A stretch of 747 bases of DNA from assembly GCF_003334385.1 (NCBI RefSeq), contig NZ_QOWN01000147.1. One strand, 5' to 3'. Position 1 is the first letter of the stretch. Each line of letters begins with the position of its first letter. The notes beneath the pieces were generated by a model. That model ran no database searches and was not told the origin of the DNA. It worked only from the letters and a program-made list of their open reading frames with translations. Shown one piece after another: positions 1-747 of the stretch. The DNA comes from Escherichia coli. GTDB taxonomy: Bacteria; Pseudomonadota; Gammaproteobacteria; Enterobacterales; Enterobacteriaceae. A program made the position numbers and the translations under genes.

Positions 1-19
1 GTGCCAATCCGGTGTGTGG
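1..19 (+). repeat. 19-bp shufflon-type repeat (putative Rci/sfx recombination site, left boundary of invertible segment)
   Basis: Seen directly: bases 1-19 GTGCCAATCCGGTGTGTGG are the exact reverse complement of 729-747 (19/19); identity stops at base 20 vs 728. From memory the R64 shufflon repeat consensus is GTGCCAATCCGGTNNNTGG (7-bp spacer GTGCCAA plus 12-bp right arm), which this fits. If so, the non-conserved left arm of the full site lies upstream of base 1, outside the window. Confidence 0.75.
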
Positions 20-352
20 CGAACGATTGGTGCACCTGACGGAAGTTACAGCAATCTGGGTTCTCACCGGGGAACATTTAACGGGAGAAATAACGGCAGA
101 GGAACTTTGTTTGTGTACGCTTCCGGTGGAAATGGTGCCGGTGGCGGTGATTGCGCCAACACATCAAATCTTCAGGGCTATGTGAACGGCGCTTTCATTG
201 GTATGAATGCCAGCAATAACCCCTCCTACGGAAAGACAGCATTTATTTCATTTGCCGTGCCAGTGGGAGCGTCATATCAAATCATCTCCAGACCAACACA
301 AAATTACGCCTGTGGTAACGGTGTTTTCTCTGTGTATGCCTATCAGATGTGA
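1..352 (+). CDS. pilV: 5'-partial CDS: alternative C-terminal variable cassette of a PilV-like minor pilin/adhesin (Gly/Asn/Ser/Tyr-rich), stop TGA at 350-352
   Basis: Frame is open from the window edge (codon phase starts at base 2: TGC CAA TCC GGT GTG TGG = CQSGVW) to the TGA at 350-352. The GTG at 14 listed in the ORF track lies inside the repeat with no Shine-Dalgarno upstream, so the true start is presumably upstream of the window. About 20 Gly in 112 residues and 2 Cys (GDCANT, NYACGNG). The gene symbol is inferred from the shufflon context, not from recognised protein sequence. Confidence 0.65.
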   Translation, partial: CQSGVWRTIGAPDGSYSNLGSHRGTFNGRNNGRGTLFVYASGGNGAGGGDCANTSNLQGYVNGAFIGMNASNNPSYGKTAFISFAVPVGASYQIISRPTQNYACGNGVFSVYAYQM

Positions 353-356
353 GTCC

Positions 357-747
357 CTAGCTGGCTTTAACAATGTAGTTGAATGCAATATTTTTGGGAC
401 GCATTTCTGTGGTACTCCCCTGTGCCCAGTATGGCATACCACTATGATGCCCTTTCAGCCATCCGCCACGTTCGTGATAGACGCCTGATTGATCGGCCTG
501 ATAACTCAGGAGTTGTCTGTTCCGATCACCATCAAGTCCCTTCCCGTTATCCCAGCCACGGATAAAAACACCGCGCAGATCGGGCAATTTACAGCTAGGA
601 TAAGCACGGGCAAGCTGAGGATACCGGGAACAGGAAAACGACTGGCCGTTCATCAACAGATAGCCTTGTGGAGGAGTGGCAGATGGCCACGGGATAGGGC
701 TTCCCACCGGGTAGGATTCAAAGCCAACCCACACACCGGATTGGCAC
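357..747 (-). CDS. pilV: 5'-partial CDS: alternative C-terminal variable cassette of a PilV-like adhesin with a phage tail-collar-like motif, stop TAG at 357-359 (read on - strand)
   Basis: On the - strand the frame is open from the window edge (phase starts at base 746: TGC CAA TCC GGT GTG TGG = CQSGVW) to the TAG at 359-357. Contains ...LMNGQSFSCSRYPQLARAYPSCKLPDLRGVFIRGWDNGKGLDGDRNRQLLSYQADQ..., which resembles the conserved core of phage tail-fibre collar domains (NGQ...YP.L...LPDLRG.F.RGWD) as I recall them. No RBS or start of its own. Gene symbol inferred from context. Confidence 0.65.
   Translation of the reverse strand, partial: CQSGVWVGFESYPVGSPIPWPSATPPQGYLLMNGQSFSCSRYPQLARAYPSCKLPDLRGVFIRGWDNGKGLDGDRNRQLLSYQADQSGVYHERGGWLKGHHSGMPYWAQGSTTEMRPKNIAFNYIVKAS
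729..747 (-). repeat. 19-bp shufflon-type repeat, inverted copy (putative Rci/sfx recombination site, right boundary)
   Basis: Seen directly: 729-747 CCACACACCGGATTGGCAC is the perfect reverse complement of 1-19. On the - strand it encodes the same C-Q-S-G-V-W peptide in the same phase as the left copy. Confidence 0.75.

What the first reader, a model, noticed from the sequence alone, without database searches (positions are those of the whole stretch)
1..747. Complete invertible segment bounded by perfect 19-bp inverted repeats: a shufflon-type DNA inversion switch
Bases 1-19 and 729-747 are exact reverse complements (19/19) and similarity ends abruptly at base 20/728. The repeat GTGCCAATCCGGTGTGTGG fits the recalled R64 shufflon consensus recognised by the tyrosine recombinase Rci. 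The whole interior is coding on opposite strands in two halves. This is a programmed-variation device: inversion would swap which cassette is fused to an upstream gene. A single-segment version is a minimal two-state switch; it could equally be one module excised from a multi-segment shufflon.
Basis: partly seen in the sequence, partly recalled or inferred. Interest (0 to 1): 0.8.

Follow-up and report, generated by a model that had tools for sequence, protein, structure and literature searches.

The report
One segment of a plasmid shufflon

Summary
Bases 1-19 and 729-747 are perfect reverse complements. Two convergent ORFs fill the interior, each in frame from base 2 of its own repeat.

The window is 100% identical to E. 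coli plasmid pJKHS006_1 (IncK2/Z) and at least 99.5% identical over its full length in 166 PLSDB plasmids. In pJKHS006_1 pilV reads through the right-hand repeat into the minus-strand cassette. A second 487-bp segment lies 8 bp to the left. A tyrosine recombinase 75% identical to R64 Rci lies beyond that.

In 15 records the segment occurs in both orientations and at every position of 2-, 3- and 4-segment shufflons. Its 19-mer was published in 2017 as "repeat-g" of IncK2 shufflons. It is therefore a module of a multi-segment shufflon, not a stand-alone two-state switch, and it is not novel.

Three side observations:
- The minus-strand cassette is a homologue of the C-terminal tip of phage tail fibres.
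- 132 plasmids carry one identical deletion that destroys rci and locks PilV on that cassette.
- The segment is nearly identical in backbones whose pilV constant regions have diverged strongly.

The parts
1..19 (+). Left sfx recombination site ('repeat-g'). The 7-bp core GTGCCAA (1-7) faces outward. The 12-bp arm TCCGGTGTGTGG (8-19) faces inward. Read from base 2 it encodes CQSGVW.
   Evidence: It fits the consensus of the seven R64 sites. The identical 19-mer is named repeat-g in Seiffert 2017 (PMC5350095).
729..747 (-). Right sfx site, the exact reverse complement of 1-19. In pJKHS006_1 it is the junction with the pilV constant region.
2..352 (+). PilV C-terminal cassette 1: 116 codons plus the stop at 350-352. 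It is related to R64 'shufflon protein A'.
   Evidence: - Open frame.
- 67% aa identity over 116 aa to the cassette fused to pilV in the R64 record NC_005014.
- NCBI product name 'prepilin, shufflon protein A'.
- Annotated as the 3' end of pilV in L011, L014, L015 and L019.
357..746 (-). PilV C-terminal cassette 2: 129 codons plus the stop at 359-357. It is a phage tail-collar / tail-fibre-tip domain, and it is the cassette expressed in pJKHS006_1.
   Evidence: - The pilV CDS in L001 (7357-8718, minus strand) covers it.
- Pfam Collar PF07484, 9.3e-13.
- PHROG tail fibre families down to 3.3e-42.
- 42-48% identity to the C-termini of phage tail fibres.
353..356 (.). 4-nt gap between the two convergent stop codons.

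Best explanation
The window is one complete invertible segment, the 747-bp 'g-g' segment, of the PilV shufflon of I-complex (IncK2/Z, B/O/K/Z-type) conjugative plasmids.

How it works:
- The tyrosine recombinase Rci, encoded next to the shufflon, recombines pairs of inverted 19-bp sfx sites within their 7-bp core. This inverts single segments or groups of segments.
- Whichever cassette comes to lie next to the pilV constant region, in the sense orientation, becomes the C-terminus of the thin-pilus tip adhesin PilV. The sfx site itself is translated as CQSGxW, so every junction stays in frame.
- This segment offers two alternative C-termini: an R64 'A'-like one on the + strand and a phage tail-collar-like one on the - strand.
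- In the source plasmid a second segment supplies two more, so four PilV variants are possible there.

What is shown here: the anatomy, the reading frames, the neighbouring genes, and the occurrence of both orientations and all positions in natural records.

What is inferred from R64, pCT and TP114 work: that Rci catalyses the inversion, and that the variants change recipient specificity in liquid mating.
For: - Identity: 100% to pJKHS006_1 and at least 99.5% full-length in 166 PLSDB plasmids, 409 of 415 matching records typed conjugative.
- Context in L001: rci (5319-6443), sfx, 487-bp segment, sfx, 8 bp, window (7001-7747), then the pilV constant region, followed by the prepilin peptidase, lytic transglycosylase and major pilin genes and the rest of the pil genes.
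- Rci is 75% identical to R64 Rci.
- PilV carries Pfam Shufflon_N, and its homology with R64 PilV ends exactly at CQSG(V/T)W.
- In 15 records the window is co-oriented with pilV through its collar cassette in 9 and through its A-like cassette in 6. It sits at position 1, 2, 3 or 4 from pilV (annotation).
- The arm triplets stay with their segments in every arrangement, as expected if crossover occurs in the outward-facing core.
- The 8-bp spacers occur in both orientations, which indicates group inversions.
- Seiffert 2017 lists this 19-mer as repeat-g and gives the arrangements g-g-e-e-e-e-h-f, e-e-e-e-g-g-h-f and e-e-h-f-e-e-g-g. All three were verified by PCR and Sanger sequencing.
- A 2025 review states that shufflons are known in PTU-B/O/K/Z plasmids.
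Against: - Nothing in the data contradicts this.
- Limits: the window itself contains neither rci nor the pilV constant region. The context comes from identical or near-identical database records, not from the unknown source.
- No reads were available to show switching within one culture.
- Inversion activity in this particular plasmid is inferred, although its rci looks intact (374 aa, full-length alignment to R64 Rci).
Confidence: 0.97

Rival explanations
1. A stand-alone, single-segment, two-state inversion switch.
For: The window is bounded by just one pair of repeats. Reduced shufflons do exist, for example two-site e-e versions in pTMSA970.
Against: In all 15 full-length contexts examined the segment is accompanied by 1-3 further sfx-bounded segments, including in the only 100% match.
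Confidence: 0.02
2. A phage-type invertible tail-fibre segment (like Mu G or P1 C) flipped by a Gin/Cin/Hin-family serine invertase. The tail-collar cassette suggests this reading.
For: The minus-strand cassette is homologous to tail-fibre C-termini. In a P2-like phage the matching region sits next to an inverted tfa gene and a 'phage DNA invertase'.
Against: - The repeats are sfx sites identical to a published shufflon repeat.
- The neighbouring recombinase is a tyrosine recombinase 75% identical to Rci.
- The fused constant region is PilV Shufflon_N, not a tail fibre.
- There is no tfa gene, and the replicons are conjugative plasmids.
Confidence: 0.01
3. A small transposable element (IS or MITE) with 19-bp terminal inverted repeats.
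For: It has perfect terminal inverted repeats.
Against: - No transposase: both ORFs are adhesin cassettes.
- Matches are almost all one per record (420 places in 415 plasmids), and in all 15 records examined the segment lies between pilV and rci.
- Its flanks are pilV, rci-proximal sequence or the 8-bp spacer, not target-site duplications.
Confidence: 0.005

Closest known systems
IncK2 plasmid shufflon, 'g-g' segment (pDV10, pDV45, pTMSA1088; Seiffert et al. 2017, PMC5350095)
   Same: It is the same segment: 99.9% identical over all 747 bases (1 substitution, T596C). It has the same repeat-g 19-mer at both ends and the same neighbouring segments (e-e, e-e, h-f).
   Different: - The exact-match plasmid pJKHS006_1 has a different backbone lineage: its pilV constant region is only 75.6% identical in DNA and its rci 93.5%.
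- It has only two segments (g-g and h-f).
- One nonsynonymous difference in the collar cassette: Ser51 in the window, Gly in the IncK2 copies.
R64 (IncI1) shufflon, the prototype (Komano 1999 review, cited)
   Same: - Same sfx consensus GTGCCAATCCGGTNNNTGG.
- Rci 75% identical.
- PilV constant region homologous up to CQSGxW.
- The + cassette is 67% identical to the R64 cassette fused to pilV in NC_005014.
   Different: - R64 has 7 sfx sites, two of them in direct orientation. Here every segment has its own inverted pair.
- None of the R64 sites has the GTG triplet.
- R64 has no counterpart of the tail-collar cassette.
IncI2 shufflons (R721, TP114; PMC5430464, PMC9045228)
   Same: Same principle: Rci-driven multiple inversion that selects PilV C-termini and so sets recipient specificity.
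   Different: Different plasmid group. No sequence comparison was made here.
PilV plus phage tail-collar fusion under programmed inversion in Pectobacterium brasiliense CP084655.1 (Milman et al. 2023, PMC9881135)
   Same: Same domain pair, Shufflon_N (PF04917) plus Collar (PF07484), on an invertible locus.
   Different: That locus is chromosomal and in another genus. Sequence relatedness to this cassette was not tested. The paper did not mention the IncB/O/K/Z plasmid cassettes.
Phage tail-fibre inversion systems (Mu G/Gin, P1 C/Cin, P2-like phages with an invertase)
   Same: They switch a homologous receptor-binding C-terminal module by DNA inversion. The collar cassette is 42-48% identical to such tail-fibre tips.
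   Different: They use a serine invertase with different sites, and each variable cassette travels with a tfa chaperone gene. Here a tyrosine recombinase and sfx sites are used, the constant part is a pilin-like adhesin, and there is no tfa.

Membership tests
Shufflon (Rci/sfx multiple inversion system of I-complex plasmids) | 19-bp sfx repeats: a 7-bp core GTGCCAA plus a conserved 12-bp arm TCCGGTNNNTGG | tested here: met
   Both ends of the window match all 16 fixed positions shared by the seven R64 sites. The 19-mer is identical to published repeat-g.
Shufflon (Rci/sfx multiple inversion system of I-complex plasmids) | Segments bounded by sfx sites in inverted orientation, with several segments in tandem | tested here: met
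   The window has an inverted pair. Records with the full-length segment have 4, 6 or 8 sfx sites, that is 2-4 segments.
Shufflon (Rci/sfx multiple inversion system of I-complex plasmids) | Adjacent rci gene (tyrosine recombinase) | tested here: met
   It is not in the window. In the 100% identical context it lies at L001 5319-6443. It is 75% identical to R64 Rci and hits tyrosine recombinase families in NCBIfam.
Shufflon (Rci/sfx multiple inversion system of I-complex plasmids) | pilV constant region (Shufflon_N, prepilin-like N-terminus) reading in frame through an sfx site into a cassette | tested here: met
   Pfam Shufflon_N matches in two stretches, 1.9e-57 and 7.7e-43. The pilV CDS 7357-8718 runs through sfx 7729-7747. 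The frame is that of base 2 of the repeat. The + cassette is fused in the same frame in L011, L014, L015 and L019.
Shufflon (Rci/sfx multiple inversion system of I-complex plasmids) | Alternative arrangements (inversion and permutation) actually occur | tested here: met
   Across records, 9 have one orientation and 6 the other, and positions 1-4 are all used. Spacers are flipped. PCR/Sanger-verified arrangements are published. Heterogeneity within one culture of the source strain could not be tested, because no reads were available.
Shufflon (Rci/sfx multiple inversion system of I-complex plasmids) | PilV variants determine recipient specificity in liquid mating | not testable with these tools
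   Known for R64, pCT and TP114 from the literature. Not tested for these two cassettes.
Serine-invertase tail-fibre switches (Gin/Cin/Hin/Pin) | Serine invertase gene and its own crossover sites flanking the segment; tfa genes inside | tested here: not met
   The neighbouring recombinase is of the tyrosine type. The repeats are sfx sites. No tfa ORF is present.

The most novel reading that the evidence does not exclude
The segment itself is known. The most novel reading still open concerns its minus-strand cassette: a phage tail-fibre receptor-binding tip (Collar domain and C-terminus, 42-48% identical to P2-, HK106- and P1-like fibres) may have been captured by a conjugative-pilus adhesin and may work there without a Tfa chaperone. 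On this reading B/O/K/Z plasmids pick recipients through the same surface receptors that those phages use. A successful lineage of 132 PLSDB plasmids has then fixed this choice by deleting rci. I found no paper in the searchable library that states this for these plasmids. Only a Pectobacterium locus has been reported.
Probability: 0.3. Interest if true: 0.35.

Novelty: already known. Interest (0 to 1): 0.1.

Why it matters
As a finding it matters little. It re-identifies a textbook programmed-variation device whose exact sequence is in hundreds of annotated plasmid records and whose repeat was named in 2017.

It has two practical uses:
- It is a reminder that shufflon regions differ between otherwise identical resistance plasmids, which complicates assembly and plasmid typing.

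The side observations could be of modest interest for understanding the recipient range of B/O/K/Z resistance plasmids. These are the tail-fibre-derived adhesin cassette, the widespread rci-deleted lineage locked on it, and the near-identical segments in diverged backbones.

Tried and rejected
- R64 under accession AP005147 was not in the collection. NC_005014 worked.
- NCBIfam gave no family for either cassette alone. PHROGs gave none for the + cassette.
- Rfam found nothing in the window at E up to 1.
- Promoter-like and terminator-like sites in the window are at the chance level: 1 found against 0.8 and 0.7 expected. I assign no regulatory element inside the segment.
- The short internal repeats D1-D3 and I2-I3 are 75-90% matches of 10-24 nt with no consistent relation to the coding frames. 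I treat them as chance.
- I planned to count orientations over the whole database with pilV/window junction queries. I dropped this because the pilV constant regions of the two main backbones are only about 76% identical and because separate pieces are joined in the output. I mapped 15 fetched records directly instead.
- The per-copy difference list was wrong: the palindromic ends made the script pick the reverse copy. It was redone correctly.
- The IS/MITE and serine-invertase readings were considered and rejected (see rival explanations).

Full report
**Observation.** The window begins with GTGCCAATCCGGTGTGTGG and ends with its exact reverse complement. The arms are 1-19 and 729-747, 19 of 19 complementary. 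Bases 20 and 728 are both C, so the complementarity ends at once. A perfect 19-nt match between the two ends of a window has probability about 4e-12 (my arithmetic).

The interior is two convergent open frames. On the + strand the frame that starts at base 2 runs to the stop at 350-352 (116 codons). On the - strand the frame that starts at base 746 runs to the stop at 359-357 (129 codons). Four bases separate the stops. Both products begin with CQSGVW, which the repeat itself encodes.

**Where it comes from.** Megablast finds the window at 100% identity over all 747 bases in one record, E. coli JKHS006 plasmid pJKHS006_1 (NZ_CP147067.1, 98 kb, IncK2/Z, MOBP, MPF_I, conjugative). It is at 99.5-99.9% over its full length in 166 PLSDB plasmids of Escherichia and Shigella. 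In complete E. coli genomes it occurs in 318 of 5,426, mostly on plasmids.

**Context in the identical plasmid (L001, window = 7001-7747).**
[quoted passage not shown] It therefore reads through the right-hand repeat (7729-7747) into the minus-strand cassette.
- The distance from the pilV start to window base 746 is a multiple of three.
- This PilV has a prepilin-type N-terminus (KG|FALLE). Pfam Shufflon_N matches in two stretches (1.9e-57 and 7.7e-43) over residues 34-328, followed by Pfam Collar (9.3e-13) at 339-386.
- Its alignment with R64 PilV (40% identity) ends exactly at "ILSCQSG(V/T)W", the sfx-encoded junction.
- Eight bases to the left of the window lies a second segment, 6506-6992 (487 bp). 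It has its own inverted pair of repeats and two more in-frame cassettes.
- Sixty-two bases beyond that lies a 374-aa "site-specific integrase". It is 75% identical over 373 aa to R64 Rci and falls in the tyrosine recombinase families.
- The prepilin peptidase, lytic transglycosylase, major pilin and further pil genes follow pilV. traE, traF and further transfer genes follow rci.

**Fit to the known recombination site.** The R64 record (NC_005014) has seven sites, all of the form GTGCCAATCCGGTNNNTGG. The window's repeat matches all 16 fixed positions and differs only in the variable triplet (GTG).

Seiffert et al. 2017 (PMC5350095) describe the site as a 7-bp core, where crossover occurs, plus a conserved 12-bp arm. 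They list exactly this 19-mer as "repeat-g" of IncK2 plasmids. They give the arrangements g-g-e-e-e-e-h-f (pDV10), e-e-e-e-g-g-h-f (pDV45) and e-e-h-f-e-e-g-g (pTMSA1088), all checked by PCR and Sanger sequencing. Those three plasmids are among my 99.9% hits (H8-H10).

**Does it invert?** I fetched 15 independent records holding the full segment and mapped sfx sites, the pilV constant region and rci in each.
- The segment is co-oriented with pilV through its tail-collar cassette in 9 records: L001, L003, L004, L010, L012, L013, L016, L017, L018.
- It is co-oriented through its A-like cassette in 6 records: L005, L006, L011, L014, L015, L019.
- It occupies the first, second, third or fourth position from pilV.
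- In L011, L014, L015 and L019 the annotated pilV CDS ends at window base 352, so the + cassette is the expressed one there.
- L014 to L018 share at least 99.4% identical PilV constant regions and 99.7% identical Rci (amino-acid level), yet show five different arrangements.
- The variable triplets always stay with their own segment (g-g with 747 bp, h/f with 487 bp, e-e with 569 and 554 bp). This is expected if the crossover is in the outward-facing core.
- The 8-bp spacer between segments occurs as TGGCCTCC or as its complement GGAGGCCA. This shows that groups of segments invert together.

This is comparative evidence across isolates. I had no reads to show heterogeneity within one culture. 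A 2025 review (PMC12282955) states that such heterogeneity is seen in DNA from a culture grown from a single colony, and that shufflons are known in PTU-I1, PTU-I2 and PTU-B/O/K/Z plasmids.

**Mechanism.** Rci recombines any two inverted sfx sites. The cassette that ends up next to the pilV constant region, in sense orientation, becomes the C-terminus of the thin-pilus tip adhesin. The translated sfx keeps every junction in frame.

The source plasmid can make four PilV variants. Four-segment IncK2 relatives have more, but I did not count their cassettes.

Here I have shown the anatomy, frames, neighbours and natural arrangements. Catalysis by Rci and the effect on recipient choice in liquid mating are inferred from work on R64, pCT and TP114.

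**Rivals.**
- A stand-alone two-state switch is not supported. Every full-length context has further segments.
- A phage-type serine-invertase switch is excluded by the sfx sites, the tyrosine recombinase and the PilV constant region.
- A transposable element is excluded by the absence of a transposase, by matches that are almost all one per record (420 places in 415 plasmids), by the position between pilV and rci in all 15 records examined, and by the absence of target duplications.

**The two cassettes.**
- The + cassette is 67% identical over 116 aa to the cassette fused to pilV in the R64 record. NCBI names it "prepilin, shufflon protein A".
- The - cassette has no counterpart in R64.
- The - cassette matches phage tail-fibre families in PHROGs down to 3.3e-42.
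- It aligns at 42-48% identity over residues 8-129 with the extreme C-termini of tail fibres of P2-like, HK106 (Stf), P1-like, Aeromonas, Vibrio, Klebsiella and Erwinia phages.
- In the P2-like phage and in HK106 the match ends at the last codons of the fibre gene, just before the tail-fibre assembly gene. In the P2-like phage an inverted tfa and a serine "DNA invertase" follow.
- So a homologous receptor-binding module is switched by two unrelated inversion systems.
- A PilV plus tail-collar fusion under programmed inversion has been reported for Pectobacterium brasiliense (PMC9881135). I found no paper in the searchable library that notes it for these plasmids.

**Other things seen.**
- A second class of hits covers only window 241-747 at about 99%. 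In L009 a remnant of rci (residues 274-337) abuts window base 241, only one sfx remains, and pilV is fused to the tail-collar cassette.
- A 300-bp query across that junction is covered in full in 132 PLSDB plasmids of E. coli, Shigella and Klebsiella. One deletion event has therefore spread widely with PilV locked on this cassette.
- A third class (about 108 records) holds an 87% identical tail-collar cassette with a different partner cassette (L008).
- The segment is 99.7-99.9% identical in backbones whose pilV constant regions are only 63-76% identical in DNA, while rci is 93-96% identical. This points to exchange of the shufflon module between lineages.
- In E. coli SCU-106 the whole pil-shufflon-rci-tra block is chromosomal, next to sigA.

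**Verdict.** The window is one module of a multi-segment shufflon, already sequenced, annotated and described. Interest is low and the novelty class is "already known".

Noticed in passing
window 357-746 (- strand); L020 1433-2932; L021 1961-2959: The minus-strand PilV cassette is a homologue of the C-terminal receptor-binding tip of phage tail fibres. Evidence: Pfam Collar, PHROG tail fibre 3.3e-42, and 42-48% identity to P2-like, HK106 Stf and P1-like fibres, with the match ending at the last codons just before tfa. The shufflon has no tfa chaperone gene. In the P2-like phage the homologous region sits beside an inverted tfa and a serine invertase.
   Followed up: partly
L009 3812-4003 / 4001-4507 (window 241-747): 132 PLSDB plasmids (E. 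coli, Shigella, Klebsiella) share one identical deletion. It joins an rci remnant (aa 274-337) to window base 241. It removes the rest of the shufflon and leaves one sfx site, so PilV is permanently fused to the tail-collar cassette.
   Followed up: partly
L001 vs L004/L011 vs L019: The 747-bp segment (and the 487-bp h-f segment) is 99.7-100% identical in backbones whose pilV constant region is only 63-76% identical in DNA, with rci at 93-96%. The shufflon module therefore looks exchanged between plasmid lineages. pJKHS006_1 combines the backbone of L014 with the h-f segment of the IncK2 plasmids.
   Followed up: partly
L008 3447-4389: About 108 plasmids (for example pO111-110512_1) carry an 87% identical tail-collar cassette in a 655-bp segment with a different partner cassette. 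They have three sfx sites, two of them in direct orientation.
   Followed up: no
8 bp flanking the window in L001-L019: The 8-bp spacer between adjacent segments occurs as TGGCCTCC or as its reverse complement GGAGGCCA in different records. This is a footprint of inversions that span several segments.
   Followed up: yes
L019 (E. coli SCU-106 chromosome, 2090170-2102916): A complete pil-pilV-shufflon-rci-traE/F block with a 99.9% identical segment lies in a chromosome next to sigA. This suggests an integrated I-complex element. 27 of the 345 places matched in E. coli genomes are chromosomal.
   Followed up: no
L005 4810-5933 (pMS1170_1): The rci reading frame is split into three frames (aa 1-28, 27-158, 157-374). 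This is either a pseudogene or a pair of sequencing errors. No integrase is listed there in the gene table.
   Followed up: no
window 596: The only difference between the window and the IncK2 copies is T596C, which changes Ser51 to Gly in the tail-collar cassette. The L014-L018 lineage differs at two synonymous sites (546 and 708).
   Followed up: yes
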